Counted from the stretch's first letter, positions 7,198 to 51,327 are shown. The stretch is DNA of 58,362 bases from Methylocystaceae bacterium (GCA_003134075.1 PLAI01000141.1:30352-88713), one strand, 5' to 3'. The notes: a model not told the origin generated them from the sequence alone. Translations and numbers: made by a program.

Positions 7198-7351
7198 TCT
7201 CAACTCCCCTTGTTTTCATGCGCGTCGCCGCTTCGCGACAGGGTAGTTAAAGCAATACTAATGCCGCGCGTCGCGAGTCCGCCCCGTTTTGAAACGCCGG
7301 CGAATTTGCCAGCGGCGGAGCGAGTTGTTTCTTGAAAGGCGAGGCCATCGC

Positions 7352-26426: not shown

Positions 26427-26442
26427 AGCAACCCCCGTGCCA
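26427..26442 (-). promoter_or_regulatory. sigma54 promoter of the iscA-nifUSV-cysE-nifW-fixABCX operon
   Basis: Minus strand TGGCACGGGGGTTGCT, canonical. Confidence 0.9.
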
Positions 26443-26486: not shown

Positions 26487-26519
26487 TGTGTGCAAGGCAA
26501 CAATGTACAGAGTCGTACA
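26487..26519. promoter_or_regulatory. Two tandem NifA upstream activator sequences
   Basis: TGT-GTGCAAGGCA-ACA (26487-26502) and TGT-ACAGAGTCGT-ACA (26504-26519). Confidence 0.75.
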
Positions 26520-35050: not shown

Positions 35051-35968
<918 letters not shown>

Positions 35969-36096
35969 TTAATTCGATCGGCGCGCGCGACCCGCAGGCC
36001 GAAGTCGTTTGCCCATTTCGACTAAGCCCGGCGTCGCGGTCGCGGTTCTCTTCGTGAGGAGAGTTTCCGCGGCCTGCCGCCTTGCGAGCCCATTAT

Positions 36097-36113
36097 CGCA
36101 AGGCGCGTGCCAG
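36097..36113 (-). promoter_or_regulatory. sigma54 promoter of nifHDKENX
   Basis: Minus strand CTGGCACGCGCCTTGCG, canonical. Confidence 0.92.
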
Positions 36114-36128: not shown

Positions 36129-36141
36129 CAACTAATTGATA
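36129..36141 (-). promoter_or_regulatory. IHF binding site
   Basis: Minus strand TATCAA-TTAG-TTG, exact consensus, in an AT-rich tract between the UAS and the promoter. Confidence 0.75.
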
Positions 36142-36163: not shown

Positions 36164-36186
36164 TGTCGGCTGTTTCAAAGCCGACA
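36164..36186. promoter_or_regulatory. NifA UAS shared by the divergent promoters
   Basis: TGT-TTCAAAGCCG-ACA (36171-36186) within the inverted repeat TGTCGGC...GCCGACA. Confidence 0.75.
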
Positions 36187-36228
36187 TCGATGCGTGGAAT
36201 CGAACGAACCACGGCAGCGTTCGACGCC

Positions 36229-36244
36229 GGGCATGGGGTTTGCT
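36229..36244 (+). promoter_or_regulatory. Putative sigma54 promoter for the divergent receiver-domain gene
   Basis: GGGCATGGGGTTTGCT: GG-N10-GC. Confidence 0.55.
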
Positions 36245-36277
36245 TCTTTTGCGCGCACAATTTCTAGCGAGGGCGAC

Positions 36278-36673
36278 ATGCAGATTGGCGTCGAGACATC
36301 CACGGCCGTCGACAACAAGCGTATCTTTGTTGTCGACGAAAATGAGATCATGCGCGCGGCGGTTCAGTTCATGCTTCATGACGAAAACGAAACGCATGAA
36401 GCGCCGAGCCTCGAATGGGCTTACGACAAGGCGCGGGATTGGCCTCCGGACCTGATTATTCTGGCCGAGGCGCTGGTGCGCGAACGCGGGACCGGATTGT
36501 TGAAGGAAATCGCCGAGCGTCTTCCGGACACGAAGATTCTGGTCATTGTCGATTCCGCGACGGATGGTTTCGGGAAGCAATGTCTGGCGGACGGCGCCGA
36601 TGGCGTATTGATCAAGCCATTGACCATCGAATTCGTGCGTCGAAAAGTCGACGTGCTGCTCGGTCGCCGTTAA
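36278..36673 (+). CDS. Stand-alone atypical receiver (pseudo-response regulator)
   Basis: IFVVDE, PDLIILAE (Ala at the phospho-Asp position), GADGVLIKP. Confidence 0.82.
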   Translation: MQIGVETSTAVDNKRIFVVDENEIMRAAVQFMLHDENETHEAPSLEWAYDKARDWPPDLIILAEALVRERGTGLLKEIAERLPDTKILVIVDSATDGFGKQCLADGADGVLIKPLTIEFVRRKVDVLLGRR

Positions 36674-36709
36674 AATTTCTTTCGATGGCGCGGGCCGCCA
36701 TCGAACAGC

Positions 36710-36745
36710 AAAAAACCCCGGAGACGCATGCCGCGCATCCGGGGT
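36710..36745 (-). terminator. Rho-independent terminator at the convergent junction
   Basis: ACCCCGGA/TCCGGGGT stem followed by a T-run on the minus strand; a second perfect 10-bp hairpin at 36681-36705. Confidence 0.65.
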
Positions 36746-37126: not shown

Positions 37127-38011
37127 TCAGACTAGCGCCGCTTCGACGTTGGCGCCGGTCAACTCGCCGACAAACTCGGCTAGAGATGCGTCGATCCGGA
37201 CGATATTTTGTTCAGCCAGGAACTTCGTTTCATTCTTGCTGAGCGGTCCCTCGATCACCGCCCAGTGGCGATCGGACGAGCGCTTCATGATCTGGCGCGC
37301 GAAGCCGCGTTCGACTTGAGTCGCGAAGCGACAGCCGAGAAACAGGAAGTTTCGGCCGCGGCGGACCATTTGCACAACTTCGGGGATCGGCGTTTGAATG
37401 TCGATTTCTGTCAGAATCTCGACATAGTCGGAGTCCGACACGATGTAATTCGACGCCGGCGTGATCGATCCGAGCGGCTGATACAGCAGAGTCTTCCACG
37501 CGAGAGTCTCTTGCGGCGCCTCCGCTGGCGCCTTCGCGCCGGTGCTGTCGCGTGTCGTTCTTTTGCCCGGAACGATTGCGCCGTCGGGACGAAAATAATG
37601 TACCCATTCGCCGAAATGCTCGGCTTGGCTGATTCCCTGGGCGAGGCCCCAATCGTCACGTCCGACAAGCGCCTTTTGCGGCAGATCATCGTACCATGCG
37701 TTGACCAGCAGCGGTAATTTGGGTCGCGCCGCGAGCCATTCGTGCAGCGCGCTTGGCCCGGTCGGCGCCGAGAAGGCGTTGTTCATCGCCGCGACGACAG
37801 TCTTTCGATGTTTGAAGTTTTCGATATATTGAGCCGCCGCTGTCAGATTATTGCGAATCTTGTGCGGCACGGTCGCCGTTTTTGTCAGGTAGGAGACAAG
37901 CGCCTCCGGAGACGCCGGCAATTCCGACGACCGCGCGAGCGACAGCACGCCAGGACCAAGATAGGGAATGACCTCGCCACGCTCGAACGCCGCGACTATT
38001 TCTTCGAACAT
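37127..38011 (-). CDS. SIR2-like domain protein, nif-associated, catalytically degenerate
   Basis: VIPYLGPG Rossmann start; NAWYDD for TTNYD; QPLGS for KLHGS; FLFLGCRF. Confidence 0.75.
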   Translation of the reverse strand: MFEEIVAAFERGEVIPYLGPGVLSLARSSELPASPEALVSYLTKTATVPHKIRNNLTAAAQYIENFKHRKTVVAAMNNAFSAPTGPSALHEWLAARPKLPLLVNAWYDDLPQKALVGRDDWGLAQGISQAEHFGEWVHYFRPDGAIVPGKRTTRDSTGAKAPAEAPQETLAWKTLLYQPLGSITPASNYIVSDSDYVEILTEIDIQTPIPEVVQMVRRGRNFLFLGCRFATQVERGFARQIMKRSSDRHWAVIEGPLSKNETKFLAEQNIVRIDASLAEFVGELTGANVEAALV

Positions 38012-38049
38012 CAGTCTCTCCTCGATCCATGGACGACGCCGCGCATGCA

Positions 38050-38265
38050 TTATTGCAGCGCCGCGGCCTTCAAAGCCTCGACTTCCGCCGCGGCGACACG
38101 ATAGACGCCGCGTCCGCCCGACAACGCCTGGAAGTCCATGGCGTGTTTGTCACTCAGCCTGTCGAACCATTGCTGTGCGGTCAGGCTGGCGGGGCGTTCT
38201 CCGATCTCGGTGACGCTGCCGTCCGGCGCGAAGCGGACATGTATGACAGTTGCGTTGCTCGCCAT
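38050..38265 (-). CDS. Small conserved hypothetical protein
   Basis: Operonic ORF with AGGAG RBS; VRFAPDG...W...L...GGRG. Confidence 0.7.
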   Translation of the reverse strand: MASNATVIHVRFAPDGSVTEIGERPASLTAQQWFDRLSDKHAMDFQALSGGRGVYRVAAAEVEALKAAALQ

Positions 38266-44663: not shown

Positions 44664-44720
44664 TGTTGGCATGCCGACAACGAACATAGGGGCACGCTTT
44701 CGTTTGTCGCCAACTCGACA
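44664..44720. promoter_or_regulatory. Two NifA UAS
   Basis: TGT-TGGCATGCCG-ACA (44664-44679) and TGT-CGCCAACTCG-ACA (44705-44720). Confidence 0.85.
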
Positions 44721-44779: not shown

Positions 44780-45259
44780 ATGAAAGAGATTGGAATGGAA
44801 GCGCCGTCGATCGACTTTGGCGAGTTGCCGGCGCCGATCAATGAACTGCTGCAACGCGGAGTTCGGGCTTATCGAAGCGACCGTGAGCTTGCGGACACGC
44901 TGTTTCGGCGAGCTCTAGCGCTGGCGCCCCAGGAGCTGGCGACATATTACTGCCTCTATAAAATACACACCTACATGGGCAACCTCGACTTCGCCGCCGT
45001 CATCGCCAAGCAAGGCATGTGCGAGGCCGCGCGACAAGCCGGATGGAGCGCCGATCCCGCGCATTGGCCGCCTCAAAATGCGGCAGGCGAGGGTCCGGCG
45101 CGCTTCGCATTGTTCACATTAAAGGCGCTCAGCTTCATCGAGCTGAAGCGAGATAATAGGGAAATAGCGCTGAAACATCTGGCCTCGCTTGAGTTTCTCG
45201 ATCCTTCGGGCAGCGTGGGCTGGTCCGTGATTTCTCAACTGGCGCAAGGGTGCGCGTAA
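44780..45259 (+). CDS. TPR-like helical protein, copy 2 (directly upstream of nifA)
   Basis: Aligns by eye with 41755..42276: LL...A..LAP...LY...Y.G.L...ARF..F.LK...L..LDP...VG. Confidence 0.72.
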   Translation: MKEIGMEAPSIDFGELPAPINELLQRGVRAYRSDRELADTLFRRALALAPQELATYYCLYKIHTYMGNLDFAAVIAKQGMCEAARQAGWSADPAHWPPQNAAGEGPARFALFTLKALSFIELKRDNREIALKHLASLEFLDPSGSVGWSVISQLAQGCA

Positions 45260-45384: not shown

Positions 45385-47127
45385 ATGGGCTGTCACCCCG
45401 GACCCAGCATGACCATATCAGCAATGCCGTCGTCGAACTTGAGCGAATCCGCTTTGGTCGGCATCTACGAAGTATCGAAACTACTGGCATCCCCCAACCG
45501 CCTCGAACGCACCTTGGCGGGGGTGCTAGCGCTGCTATCGAGTTTTCTCGACATGAGGCATGGGCTGTTCGCCTTGCTGGATAAGCAGGGCGAACCGGAA
45601 ATCGTCGTGGGGTCCGGTTGGTCCGAGACCAACGCGAAAAAATATTTCGATCATTTGCCCGAGCGCGCGGTTGGCCAGATCTTCGCCACCAAAATGCCGC
45701 TGGTCATCGAAAACGTGCACACATCGCCTTTGTTCGAGGGGTCGGATCTCTCGGATTGGGGTCCAACGGACGGCCAGCCGTTTTCGCTGGTCGGCGTGCC
45801 GATCAAGGACGGCGACACCGTGGTCGGCACGCTGACGATCGATCGCGTATTCAGCGATCGCTCGGCGATCAGGTTCGATCACGATGTCCGCTTTCTGACC
45901 ATGATCGCCAATCTGGTCGGGCAAACATTACGGCTGCATAAGCTTATCTCGCGCGACCGCGACAGGCTGATGCAGGAGAACGCGCGCCTCGGCAAGGGCG
46001 ACCGGCCGACGATCGCCGAATCGAAGATTAACGGGATCAAGGGCATTGTCGGATCCAGCCCGTCCGTGAGCGCGGTGATCGACAAAATCCGCATCGTCGC
46101 CAAATCTCGATCGACCGTGCTGCTGCGTGGCGAATCGGGCACCGGGAAGGAATTGTTCGCGGCGGCGATTCACAATCTCTCGCCGCGCCATTCCAAGCCG
46201 TTCGTGAAGCTCAACTGCGCCGCGCTGCCTGAAAGCGTGTTGGAGTCCGAATTGTTCGGCCATGAGCGCGGCGCCTTCACGGGCGCGGCGAACTTGCGCA
46301 AGGGCCGGTTCGAACTGGCCGACGGCGGCACGTTGTTCCTTGACGAAATCGGCGAGATCACGCCTTCCTTCCAGGCCAAGCTGCTGCGCGTTTTGCAGGA
46401 AGGCGAATTCGAACGGGTCGGCGGTTCGCGCACGATGAAGGTGGATGTCCGCTTCGTTTGCGCCACCAATAAAAATCTCGAAGAAGCCGTGCAGAAGGGC
46501 GAGTTCCGCGCCGATCTCTACTATCGTATCAGCGTCGTTCCGATTTTTCTGCCGCCGCTGCGCGAGCGCAAGGGCGATCTCGGGCCTCTCGCCAACGAGT
46601 TCCTGCGCCGGTTCAACGCCGAACAGGGCACGCATCTCACGCTGTCTCCTTCCGCCATGGAGGTGCTCTCGGAATGCGGCTTTCCCGGCAACATCCGCGA
46701 ATTGGAGAATTGCGTGTTCCGCACCGCGACATTGGCGCGGGGAGAGGCGATTATCGACAAGGATTTCTCCTGCCGCAACGATGGCTGTCTCTCGGCCGTG
46801 TTGTGGAGCGGTTCGCATGAGGCGCCGTCGCCGTCGCCTCTGTTCAAGCAGCAGTTGCCGATCGTCCCCAGCCAAAAGGCGCCGGTCGCCGCCGAGCCGC
46901 GCCCGCCCGCGCCAAGCGCCGCGGAACCGGACGCGCCGATGAATTGTCCAGGGGCGGAAAACTGCACCGTTGTGGGCGTCGATCAGCGCGGCGATCGCGA
47001 GAAACTCATCCGCGCGATGGAGCAGGCGGGTTGGGTGAAGGCCAAGGCGGCGCGTCTGCTCGGCTTGACGCCGCGCCAGATTGGCTACGCGTTGCAAAAG
47101 CATGACGTGCCCGTGCGGAAATTCTAA
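45385..47127 (+). CDS. nifA: Nif-specific sigma54 activator NifA, O2-sensitive type
   Basis: GAF domain, GESGTGKE, ELFGHERGAFTGA, C-x11-C-x19-C-x4-C motif, C-terminal HTH AKAARLLGLTPRQIGY. Confidence 0.97.
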   Translation: MGCHPGPSMTISAMPSSNLSESALVGIYEVSKLLASPNRLERTLAGVLALLSSFLDMRHGLFALLDKQGEPEIVVGSGWSETNAKKYFDHLPERAVGQIFATKMPLVIENVHTSPLFEGSDLSDWGPTDGQPFSLVGVPIKDGDTVVGTLTIDRVFSDRSAIRFDHDVRFLTMIANLVGQTLRLHKLISRDRDRLMQENARLGKGDRPTIAESKINGIKGIVGSSPSVSAVIDKIRIVAKSRSTVLLRGESGTGKELFAAAIHNLSPRHSKPFVKLNCAALPESVLESELFGHERGAFTGAANLRKGRFELADGGTLFLDEIGEITPSFQAKLLRVLQEGEFERVGGSRTMKVDVRFVCATNKNLEEAVQKGEFRADLYYRISVVPIFLPPLRERKGDLGPLANEFLRRFNAEQGTHLTLSPSAMEVLSECGFPGNIRELENCVFRTATLARGEAIIDKDFSCRNDGCLSAVLWSGSHEAPSPSPLFKQQLPIVPSQKAPVAAEPRPPAPSAAEPDAPMNCPGAENCTVVGVDQRGDREKLIRAMEQAGWVKAKAARLLGLTPRQIGYALQKHDVPVRKF

Positions 47128-51311: not shown

Positions 51312-51327
51312 TGGCATGTCGATTGCT
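51312..51327 (+). promoter_or_regulatory. sigma54 promoter upstream of the group II globin
   Basis: TGGCATGTCGATTGCT, near-canonical. Confidence 0.7.

What the first reader, a model, noticed from the sequence alone, without database searches (positions are those of the whole stretch)
36194..36673. Pseudo-receiver protein divergent from nifH, sharing its NifA site
SEEN: a stand-alone receiver fold in which the phospho-acceptor position (PDLIIL-D) is Ala (codon 36464-36466), with the Lys (KP) retained. A plus-strand GG-N10-GC site (36229-36244) mirrors the nifH promoter across one palindromic UAS. No kinase is present in the window. KNOWN: receivers lacking this Asp cannot be canonically phosphorylated and act as adaptors or allosteric partners. 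INFERENCE: a phosphorylation-independent regulator co-induced with nitrogenase, such as a NifA modulator or switch-off factor (no nifL or draTG in this window).
Basis: partly seen in the sequence, partly recalled or inferred. Interest (0 to 1): 0.65.

Follow-up and report, generated by a model that had tools for sequence, protein, structure and literature searches.

The report
Nitrogenase-linked receiver protein without phosphorylation site
Next to the nitrogenase gene nifH lies a small signalling-type "receiver" protein that cannot be phosphorylated. It belongs to a strongly conserved, unstudied family that sits beside nitrogenase genes in many nitrogen-fixing bacteria and appears to be switched on by the same activator, so it is a good untested candidate for a new nitrogenase accessory or control factor.

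Summary
The gene starts at ATG 36278, not GTG 36194, and encodes a 131-aa stand-alone receiver domain (Pfam 47 bits; AlphaFold pLDDT 91). The phospho-acceptor position is Ala63 (codon 36464-36466); Lys113-Pro114 are kept. Across 81 family members this position is Gly, Ala or Ser, never Asp or Glu, and the rest of the phosphorylation pocket is degenerate. Conservation lies instead in an invariant, disordered N-terminal peptide (MQIGVE), helix 1, a QFMLHDExETH motif and helix 5. Abundant synonymous variation and dN/dS of 0.09-0.27 show selection on the protein.

In about 70 of 80 loci from Alpha-, Beta- and Gammaproteobacteria the gene is divergent from nifH. Nearly all carry a GG-N10-GC sigma-54 promoter 30-41 nt before the ATG and NifA sites upstream. 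Here one NifA site (36171-36186) serves both promoters.

Same-strand downstream genes vary: draT-draG, an ArsC-like gene, a truncated globin, SufE or nifA. This genome has no DraT, DraG or NifL hit, and the contig has no kinase.

No paper describing the family was found. Function is inferred: a phosphorylation-independent binding module co-induced with nitrogenase. Which partner it binds is open.

The parts
36278..36673 (+). Coding sequence of the 131-aa stand-alone pseudo-receiver, stop codon included. The true start is ATG 36278.
   Evidence: PF00072 at 47.3 bits. All homologues start MQIGVE. AF2 pLDDT 91.2. dN/dS 0.09-0.27.
36278..36295 (+). N-terminal peptide MQIGVE, almost invariant and predicted disordered. 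It is a candidate short binding motif.
   Evidence: Mean top-residue frequency 0.98. Synonymous codons vary freely: CAG/CAA, ATC/ATT/ATA, and four codons each for Gly and Val. pLDDT is below 50 for residues 6-10.
36365..36400 (+). Family signature QFMLHDENETHE (residues 30-41): end of helix 1, the helix 1-strand 2 loop, and edge strand 2.
   Evidence: Q30 F31 M32 L33 H34 D35 E36 E38 H40 are invariant in 80 sequences, with synonymous variation.
36464..36466 (+). Codon of Ala63 at the phospho-acceptor position (CheY D57 / RR468 D53).
   Evidence: Alignment to RR468. In 81 members the position is G in 63, A in 10 and S in 8; it is never D or E.
36614..36619 (+). Codons of Lys113-Pro114 (CheY K109-P110 equivalent), retained.
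   Evidence: K in 77/81 and P in 81/81.
36230..36244 (+). Sigma-54 type -24/-12 promoter of the pseudo-receiver gene (GGCAT-N5-TTGCT), ending 33 nt before the ATG.
   Evidence: 4 matches against 0.44 expected. An equivalent site ends 30-41 nt before the ATG in most of the 80 loci. It is conserved in the alignment of six Methylocystaceae loci.
36171..36186 (.). NifA upstream activator sequence TGT-N10-ACA, shared by the two divergent promoters. It lies about 76 bp upstream of the expected start of the pseudo-receiver transcript and about 94 bp upstream of that of nifH.
   Evidence: 10 matches in the window against 3.0 expected. Fully conserved in six related loci. One or two such sites lie 105-240 nt upstream of the ATG in most loci.
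36191..36206 (.). Second conserved block, TGC-N10-ACG, 20 bp after the UAS. It is possibly a degenerate second NifA site.
   Evidence: It is invariant or nearly so in six loci. Function is inferred only.
36129..36141 (-). IHF-consensus match (TATCAATTAGTTG) in an 80% A+T block between the UAS and the nifH promoter.
36097..36112 (-). nifH sigma-54 promoter TGGCAC-N5-TTGCG.
   Evidence: Read from the sequence. Conserved.
35051..35944 (-). nifH (nitrogenase Fe protein), divergent neighbour, followed by nifD and nifK.
   Evidence: ORF list. 86-97% identical to the NifH of the related loci.
45385..47127 (+). nifA: GAF, sigma-54 AAA+ and HTH domains with the C-X11-C-X19-C-X4-C motif. It is the presumed activator of both promoters.
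   Evidence: Pfam. Sequence.

Best explanation
The gene encodes a member of a conserved, uncharacterised family of stand-alone pseudo-receivers that belongs to the NifA/sigma-54 nitrogen-fixation regulon.

Shown here:
- It has a receiver fold with a dead phosphorylation pocket.
- It is under strong purifying selection.
- It sits at a fixed position divergent from the nitrogenase structural operon.
- It has its own conserved -24/-12 promoter and NifA sites.

Inferred:
- NifA bound at the shared UAS fires nifHDK and this gene together, so the protein accumulates in step with nitrogenase.
- The protein does not receive a phosphoryl group. It acts as a constitutive protein-binding module.
- Binding uses the surfaces that the family conserves: the disordered N-terminal MQIGVE peptide, helix 1, the HDExETH loop and edge strand, the K-P-L loop and helix 5.
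- The target is a very conserved nitrogenase-related partner present in every host.

The most likely level of action is post-translational handling of nitrogenase: control, protection or maturation of the Fe protein NifH. The variable genes co-transcribed with family members are of that kind (DraT/DraG, a thioredoxin-fold ArsC-like protein, truncated globin, SufE). Modulation of NifA is the main alternative.
For: Fold and dead site:
- establish the fold and the alignment to RR468.
- acceptor is G 63, A 10, S 8 of 81. The D12 equivalent is lost in 29 of 81. The D13 and T87 equivalents are variable. K-P is kept.

Selection on the protein:
- synonymous variation at invariant residues.
- dN/dS 0.09-0.27.
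- 1138 homologues at E <= 1e-3.
- 42 representatives at 50% identity with E <= 1e-30, nearly all under 260 aa with a single matched stretch.

Genomic niche:
- divergent from nifH in about 70 of 80 loci across three proteobacterial classes.
- in 301 genomes of the order, all 6 carriers have nifH adjacent, against 41 of 301 with nifH overall.
- a distant subfamily, also with G at the acceptor, sits divergent from nifDKEN.

Regulon:
- (promoter, UAS, footprints).
- NifA lies in the window.

Operon partners:
- draT-draG, with the stop codon overlapping the draT start in L044.
- ArsC-like gene.
- Bac_globin.
- SufE.

Conserved surface.
Against: - No expression, interaction or phenotype data exist.
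- The only constant neighbour is the nitrogenase promoter itself. The variable operon partners may merely exploit a NifA-dependent promoter.
- In Methylocystis the gene precedes orf-nifA, which favours a NifA-level role.
- The gene is dispensable in at least one close relative: G041 has an ArsC-like gene in its place.
- This genome has no DraT or DraG hit, so any role cannot depend on them.
- The window protein is itself atypical within the family. It has Asn22 where 77 of 81 members have Asp, and it lacks the C-terminal IPLxVL tail present in 13 of the 20 homologues aligned.
Confidence: 0.55

Rival explanations
1. It is a feedback modulator of NifA. The protein, made under NifA control, binds NifA (GAF or AAA+ domain) or its PII partner and tunes activator output. 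It would be a small, phosphorylation-independent counterpart of an anti-activator or co-activator.
For: In four Methylocystis loci the order is pseudo-receiver, small orf, nifA on one strand. None of 20 carrier genomes has NifL, and the same search does detect NifL in 16 of 250 Gammaproteobacteria. The NifA here is the NifL-independent, Cys-motif type. Helix 1 and the strand 5-helix 5 loop, the usual docking face of receivers, are conserved.
Against: One NifL-positive genome carries the gene, again beside nifH. In most loci nifA is not adjacent. Operon partners are mostly not transcription factors.
Confidence: 0.2
2. It is a ligand, metal or redox sensor. The receiver scaffold binds a small molecule or metal through the invariant His/Asp/Glu cluster (H34 D35 E36 E38 H40) and reports iron, redox or oxygen status to the nitrogenase system. 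The precedent is the quinone-binding pseudo-receivers of KaiA and CikA (recalled from memory).
For: Two His and three carboxylates are invariant on a loop and an exposed edge strand. Neighbours are often redox, oxygen or iron-sulfur proteins: Rrf2, glutaredoxin, ArsC-like, truncated globin, SufE and ferredoxins.
Against: The distant nif-linked subfamily does not keep H34, D35 or E36. No ligand site can be computed with these tools. Conservation of a disordered N-terminal peptide argues for a protein partner.
Confidence: 0.15
3. It is a conventional response regulator, phosphorylated by an orphan kinase elsewhere in the genome at another acidic residue.
For: D20, E21 and K113 are present in the window protein. 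The genome holds 43 HATPase_c domains.
Against: The acceptor is Gly in 78% of the family and never acidic. The acidic pair and the Thr/Ser position are degenerate. No kinase lies on the contig, and none was among the neighbours identified in the related loci.
Confidence: 0.04
4. It is a decaying gene, or an ORF kept only because a bidirectional NifA promoter happens to read into it.
For: It is absent from one close relative and present in only 6 of 41 nifH-bearing genomes of the order.
Against: dN/dS is 0.09-0.27. Invariant residues carry free synonymous change. The model is confident. The gene is conserved at 50-60% identity across three classes.
Confidence: 0.03

Closest known systems
Single-domain response regulators (CheY, Spo0F, T. 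maritima RR468)
   Same: The same (beta-alpha)5 fold: Foldseek TM about 0.8 and HMMER E = 1e-7. Lys-Pro is retained at the end of strand 5. Helix 1 is conserved.
   Different: There is no acceptor Asp, the acidic pocket is degenerate, and no kinase is nearby. A 14-residue N-terminal extension carries an invariant peptide. Conservation sits in residues 1-42 and helix 5, and the alpha3-beta4-alpha4 region is variable.
Pseudo-receivers and atypical receivers (KaiA and CikA pseudo-receiver domains, plant PRRs, FrzS, ChxR, HP1043); recalled from memory, not tested here
   Same: A receiver scaffold that works without aspartyl phosphorylation, as a binding or ligand-sensing module.
   Different: Those are domains of larger proteins or DNA-binding regulators in clock, motility or general transcription systems. 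This one is a free-standing protein confined to nitrogenase loci and driven by NifA and sigma-54. No sequence relationship beyond the fold was found.
Nitrogenase control proteins: NifL, DraT/DraG, PII-type NifI1/NifI2
   Same: nif-linked, non-catalytic or regulatory, and co-located with nifH. Family members are co-transcribed with draT-draG in betaproteobacterial loci.
   Different: There is no PAS or GHKL domain (NifL), no ADP-ribosyl transferase or hydrolase domain, and no PII fold. This genome has no NifL above cut-off and no DraT or DraG hit.
A. ferrooxidans AFE1523, annotated as 'putative sigma-54 response regulator', first gene of a cluster with draT-draG divergent from nifH (PMC2621215)
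   Same: The same gene order as the betaproteobacterial loci found here: nifH divergent from receiver-draT-draG.
   Different: Its sequence was not retrieved, so membership in this family is a lead and not a result. The paper gives no functional data.

Membership tests
Response regulator receiver domain (Pfam PF00072) | Profile match above the gathering score, and the (beta-alpha)5 fold | tested here: met
   47.3 bits against 30.2. AF2 strand and helix order E15-19 H23-33 E38-42 H45-52 E59-63 H64-81 E86-91 H98-104 E109-112 H117-127. Foldseek.
Functional (phosphorylatable) response regulator | Asp at the end of strand 3 (CheY D57) | tested here: not met
   Ala63 here. Across 81 relatives the position is G, A or S.
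Functional (phosphorylatable) response regulator | Acidic pair after strand 1 (D12/D13) and Thr/Ser at the end of strand 4 | tested here: inconclusive
   The window has D20-E21 and S93. In the family D20 is lost in 29 of 81, and positions 21 and 93 are variable.
Functional (phosphorylatable) response regulator | Conserved Lys at the end of strand 5 | tested here: met
   K113 in 77/81 and P114 in 81/81.
Functional (phosphorylatable) response regulator | Cognate histidine kinase encoded nearby | tested here: not met
   No HATPase_c on contig C364. No kinase among the neighbours identified in the related loci.
NifA/sigma-54 regulon member | -24 GG and -12 GC elements with 10-nt spacing, upstream of the gene | tested here: met
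   36230-36244. The position is conserved in most of the 80 loci and stands out as a footprint.
NifA/sigma-54 regulon member | TGT-N10-ACA upstream activator sequence | tested here: met
   36171-36186. One or two sites in most loci.
NifA/sigma-54 regulon member | NifA-dependent transcription under nitrogen-fixing conditions | not testable with these tools
No transcriptome paper naming the gene was found.
Pseudo-receiver (phosphorylation-independent receiver) | Receiver fold with a non-acidic residue at the acceptor, kept under purifying selection | tested here: met
NifL-type anti-activator | PAS domains plus a GHKL domain (TIGR02938) | tested here: not met
   Only PF00072 matches the protein. 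The genome's best TIGR02938 hit scores 92.9 bits against a cut-off of 242.
DraT/DraG switch-off system | DRAT (PF07357) and ADP-ribosylglycohydrolase genes in the genome | tested here: not met
   tblastn with the Pfam-verified DraT and DraG of L044 finds nothing in the 90.6%-complete genome.

The most novel reading that the evidence does not exclude
The family is an unrecognised core component of the nif system of oxygen-exposed Proteobacteria. It is made in step with nitrogenase and docks directly on the Fe protein NifH (or on NifH-modifying enzymes where these exist) through its invariant N-terminal peptide and HDExETH surface. It thereby mediates a reversible switch-off or protection of nitrogenase that needs neither phosphorylation nor ADP-ribosylation.
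Probability: 0.15. Interest if true: 0.8.

Novelty: new variant of a known kind. Interest (0 to 1): 0.6.

Why it matters
Regulation and protection of nitrogenase in aerobic, non-model diazotrophs is poorly understood. These include methanotrophs, sulfur oxidisers and sphingomonads, many of which lack NifL and some of which, like this genome, also lack DraT and DraG.

This gene has a fixed place opposite nifH and its own NifA-type promoter. It keeps more than 50% identity across three proteobacterial classes and shows a clear signature of selection on a non-canonical surface. These features define a concrete, testable candidate for a missing control or accessory factor.

It is also a clean natural example of a receiver domain that has given up phosphorylation entirely and moved its conserved surface elsewhere. 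Finally, it is relevant to attempts to transfer minimal nif clusters, where unannotated 'response regulator' genes are usually discarded.

Tried and rejected
- GTG 36194 as the start. Rejected: the homologues begin at the ATG, and the sigma-54 promoter lies inside the extension.
- A specific curated family. NCBIfam gives only weak generic response-regulator hits far below their cut-offs.
- Domain fusions as functional hints. The exhaustive profile search found no convincing domain fusion among members starting at model position 1. Most are under 260 aa with one matched stretch. Four longer records were read: two are upstream start extensions, one (P0149) has a low-complexity out-of-frame tail, and one (P0143) joins the receiver to a tail that by eye resembles a SOUL haem-binding protein.
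- RNA element in the intergenic region. There is no Rfam match, and the nifH leader fold is not better than shuffles (z = -0.94).
- Strict mutual exclusion with NifL. Rejected: 0 of 20 carriers have NifL, but 1 of 16 NifL-bearing genomes carries the gene.
- DraT via PF07357 on the own genome. The control did not ring, so that result is uninformative. It was replaced by tblastn with verified DraT and DraG.
- Expression in public runs.
- Literature. Seven full-text searches and nine papers read found no description of the family.
- The order-level genome search scored only 13 candidates per genome, so its 6 of 301 is a floor.

Full report
**1. What is in the sequence**

nifH (35944..35051), nifD and nifK lie on the minus strand.

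All 20 and then 79 aligned homologues begin MQIGVE at the ATG that corresponds to 36278. A GAGGG ribosome-binding site precedes this ATG, and the predicted sigma-54 promoter lies inside the GTG extension. The protein is therefore 131 aa (36278-36673 with the stop).

It matches only Pfam Response_reg (47.3 bits, cut-off 30.2). NCBIfam gives weak generic response-regulator hits far below their cut-offs.

An AlphaFold2 model built on an 80-sequence alignment has mean pLDDT 91.2 and the canonical five strand-helix units. Only residues 1-10 are of low confidence. Foldseek returns ordinary receiver domains at TM about 0.8.

**2. The phosphorylation site is dead, here and in the whole family**

HMMER aligns query PDLIILA with PDLIVLD of T. 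maritima RR468, whose D53 is the acceptor. The top PDB hit is in fact the D53A mutant.

In 81 family members:
- The acceptor position is Gly (63), Ala (10) or Ser (8), and never Asp or Glu.
- The CheY D12 equivalent is Asp in only 52.
- The D13 and T87 equivalents are variable.
- Lys113 (77/81) and Pro114 (81/81) persist.

This is therefore a true pseudo-receiver and not a one-off mutant.

**3. Where conservation went**

Invariant or nearly invariant residues are M1 Q2 I3 G4 V5 E6, F17, D22, R26, Q30-F-M-L-H-D-E36, E38, T39, H40, A48, K51, P57-D58, G106, K113-P114-L115, E118, R121, D125 and L128-G-R130.

By segment, the top-residue frequency is:

| Segment | Frequency |
|---|---|
| N-terminal hexapeptide | 0.98 |
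| Helix 1 | 0.88 |
| Helix 1-strand 2 loop | 0.95 |
| Strand 2 | 0.83 |
| K-P-L-T loop | 0.90 |
| Alpha3, beta4-alpha4 loop, alpha4 | 0.41-0.51 |

At the invariant residues synonymous codons vary freely, for example four codons each for Gly4 and Val5 and CAC/CAT for His34 and His40. Pairwise dN/dS is 0.09-0.27, with dS near saturation. Selection therefore acts on the protein and not on an RNA or DNA element.

From the standard receiver topology (inference), the N-terminus, the alpha1-beta2 loop, P57-D58 and G106 all lie at the pole opposite the defunct active site. Strand 2 is the edge strand of the sheet.

An invariant but disordered N-terminal peptide is what one expects of a short docking motif.

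**4. Genomic niche**

A degenerate-pattern scan of one genome per species returned 146 relatives, and 80 loci were kept. They come from:
- Methylocystaceae/Beijerinckiaceae, Hyphomicrobium, Rhodomicrobium and Novosphingobium (Alpha);
- Thiobacillus, Sulfuriferula and other Hydrogenophilales/Burkholderiales (Beta);
- Steroidobacteraceae and Porticoccaceae (Gamma);
- a few MAGs labelled Terriglobia or Fibrobacteria.

In about 70 of the 80 loci, nifH lies upstream on the opposite strand, 290-1950 bp away. Four Methylocystis loci instead have the order pseudo-receiver, small orf, nifA on one strand.

In a sample of 301 genomes of the window's order, 41 have nifH and 6 have the family. All 6 have nifH, and it is adjacent. 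The 6 is a floor, because only 13 candidates per genome were scored.

The exhaustive profile search found 42 representatives at 50% identity with E <= 1e-30, nearly all under 260 aa with a single matched stretch. Of the longer ones read, two are upstream start extensions and one has an out-of-frame tail. One joins the receiver to an unrelated tail, probably as an assembly chimera.

More distant relatives also have Gly at the acceptor. They sit divergent from nifDKEN, upstream of SufE and beside nifZ-sufSDCB.

The constant feature of the superfamily is thus a position opposite a nitrogenase structural operon.

**5. Regulatory region**

The window has, in order:
- the nifH -24/-12 element TGGCAC-N5-TTGCG (36112..36097, minus strand);
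- an IHF-consensus match in an 80% A+T block (36141..36129);
- one TGT-N10-ACA site (36171-36186);
- a conserved TGC-N10-ACG block 20 bp further on (36191-36206);
- GGCAT-N5-TTGCT (36230-36244, 4 matches in the window against 0.44 expected);
- GAGGG, then ATG 36278.

In most of the 80 loci a GG-N10-GC site matching 7-10 of 11 consensus positions ends 30-41 nt before the ATG, with one or two TGT-N10-ACA sites 105-240 nt upstream. This holds even where an Rrf2 gene separates the pseudo-receiver gene from nifH.

In an alignment of six Methylocystaceae loci, both promoters, the UAS and the second block are the conserved islands in otherwise divergent DNA.

NifA is encoded at 45385-47127 (GAF, AAA+, HTH, with C-X11-C-X19-C-X4-C).

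Co-induction with nifH by NifA and sigma-54 is therefore strongly supported by sequence.

**6. Neighbours and what they suggest**

On the same strand, directly downstream, family members are followed by:
- draT-draG (13 loci; in L044 the stop codon overlaps the draT start) or draG alone (11 loci), usually then an ArsC-like gene (Pfam-verified);
- the ArsC-like gene directly (about 12 loci);
- a Bac_globin truncated haemoglobin (about 10 loci);
- SufE in the distant subfamily;
- orf-nifA in Methylocystis.

In the window and most Alphaproteobacteria the gene is monocistronic. It is convergent with the tail of the nifB operon: thioredoxin-like ferredoxin, SIR2-like, Fer2, DegT-like.

This genome (90.6% complete) has no DraT or DraG hit and no NifL above cut-off. 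The contig has no kinase.

None of 20 carrier genomes has NifL. The same search finds NifL in 16 of 250 Gammaproteobacteria, and one of those 16 does carry the family beside nifH. The two are therefore not mutually exclusive.

One congener of a carrier lacks the gene and has the ArsC-like gene in its place, so the gene can be lost.

**7. Interpretation**

Shown: this is a conserved, selected, phosphorylation-incompetent receiver-fold protein tied to the nitrogenase promoter, with its own NifA-type promoter.

Inferred: it is a constitutive binding module produced in step with nitrogenase. Its partner must exist in every carrier and be highly conserved (NifH, NifDK, NifA, PII).

Most co-transcribed genes act on proteins, redox state or clusters rather than on transcription. 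I therefore favour a post-translational role on nitrogenase (about 0.35 of the total). A NifA-level feedback role is next (about 0.2), then a ligand or metal-sensing role (about 0.15).

Conventional phosphorylation and pseudogene status are effectively excluded.

**8. Known or new**

Databases call these proteins 'response regulator' or 'OmpR family'. Seven full-text searches and nine papers found no study of them.

[quoted passage not shown] Whether that gene belongs to this family was not verified.

Pseudo-receivers as a concept are known. A free-standing family specific to the nif regulon, with a relocated conserved surface, appears to be undescribed.

Noticed in passing
window 36191-36210: The block TGCGTGGAATCGAACGA directly after the NifA UAS is invariant or nearly so in six Methylocystaceae loci. 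It reads TGC-N10-ACG, a possible degenerate second NifA site two helical turns from the first.
   Followed up: partly
window 35945-36086 (minus strand: nifH leader): The nifH 5' leader of about 140 nt contains long blocks conserved in six loci (for example CGATCGGCGCGCGCGAC, AGGCCGAAGTCG, GAGCCCGGCG). An inverted repeat GCCTTGCGA...TCGCAAGGC overlaps the -12 element. The predicted fold is not better than shuffles (z = -0.94), and there is no Rfam match.
   Followed up: partly
L044 5293-5748 and about 17 other betaproteobacterial loci (L022, L029, L032, L037-L041, L043, L045, L047-L049, L051, L056, L060, L065): An Rrf2-family (iron-sulfur type) regulator gene lies between nifH and the pseudo-receiver gene, on the nifH strand.
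   Followed up: partly
L028 1734-2183; also L020, L023, L030, L036, L042, L052: A truncated haemoglobin (Bac_globin, 111 bits) lies on the same strand within 0-500 bp after the pseudo-receiver gene.
   Followed up: partly
L085-L089: A distant pseudo-receiver subfamily lies divergent from nifDKEN, with no nifH adjacent. It is followed by SufE and faces a nif-linked nifZ-sufS-sufD-sufC-sufB set.
   Followed up: partly
window 44780-45259: A 159-aa ORF with no Pfam match lies directly upstream of nifA, behind two TGT-N10-ACA sites (44664-44679, 44705-44720) shared with nifB. By eye, a similar ORF lies between the pseudo-receiver gene and nifA in Methylocystis locus L005.
   Followed up: partly
window 26427-26441 (-), 26487-26519; 51313-51327 (+); 7251-7265 (-): Further GGCAY-N5-TTGCW sites. 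The first has two adjacent TGT-N10-ACA sites, so other NifA-type promoters are likely in the window.
   Followed up: no
window 37127-38050 (-): A SIR2_2-domain gene lies convergent and downstream of the pseudo-receiver gene. Homologues lie within 6 kb in about 45 of the 80 loci. The Zymomonas mobilis nif cluster has a similar gene, ZMO1821 (PMC8594446).
   Followed up: partly
G041:C1:7828600-7831000 (L094): A genome of the same genus as a carrier, with NifH 89% identical to the window's, has no pseudo-receiver gene. An ArsC-like gene sits divergent from nifH in its place.
   Followed up: yes
own genome, contig C49 12345-13147: Two tandem ArsC-like genes, 43-50% identical to the one that follows draG in Thiobacillus, lie away from the window.
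   Followed up: no
C-terminus of the family (alignment A1, columns 133-148): Most members carry a conserved tail (about 10 residues ending I/L-P-L-x-V-L). The window protein and its four closest relatives end at LLGRR and lack it.
   Followed up: no
window 36680-36745: Two hairpins lie between the convergent pseudo-receiver and ferredoxin genes. The second (36715-36743) is followed on the minus strand by TTTTTT and looks like the ferredoxin gene's terminator. No clear T-run terminator exists for the plus-strand gene.
   Followed up: no
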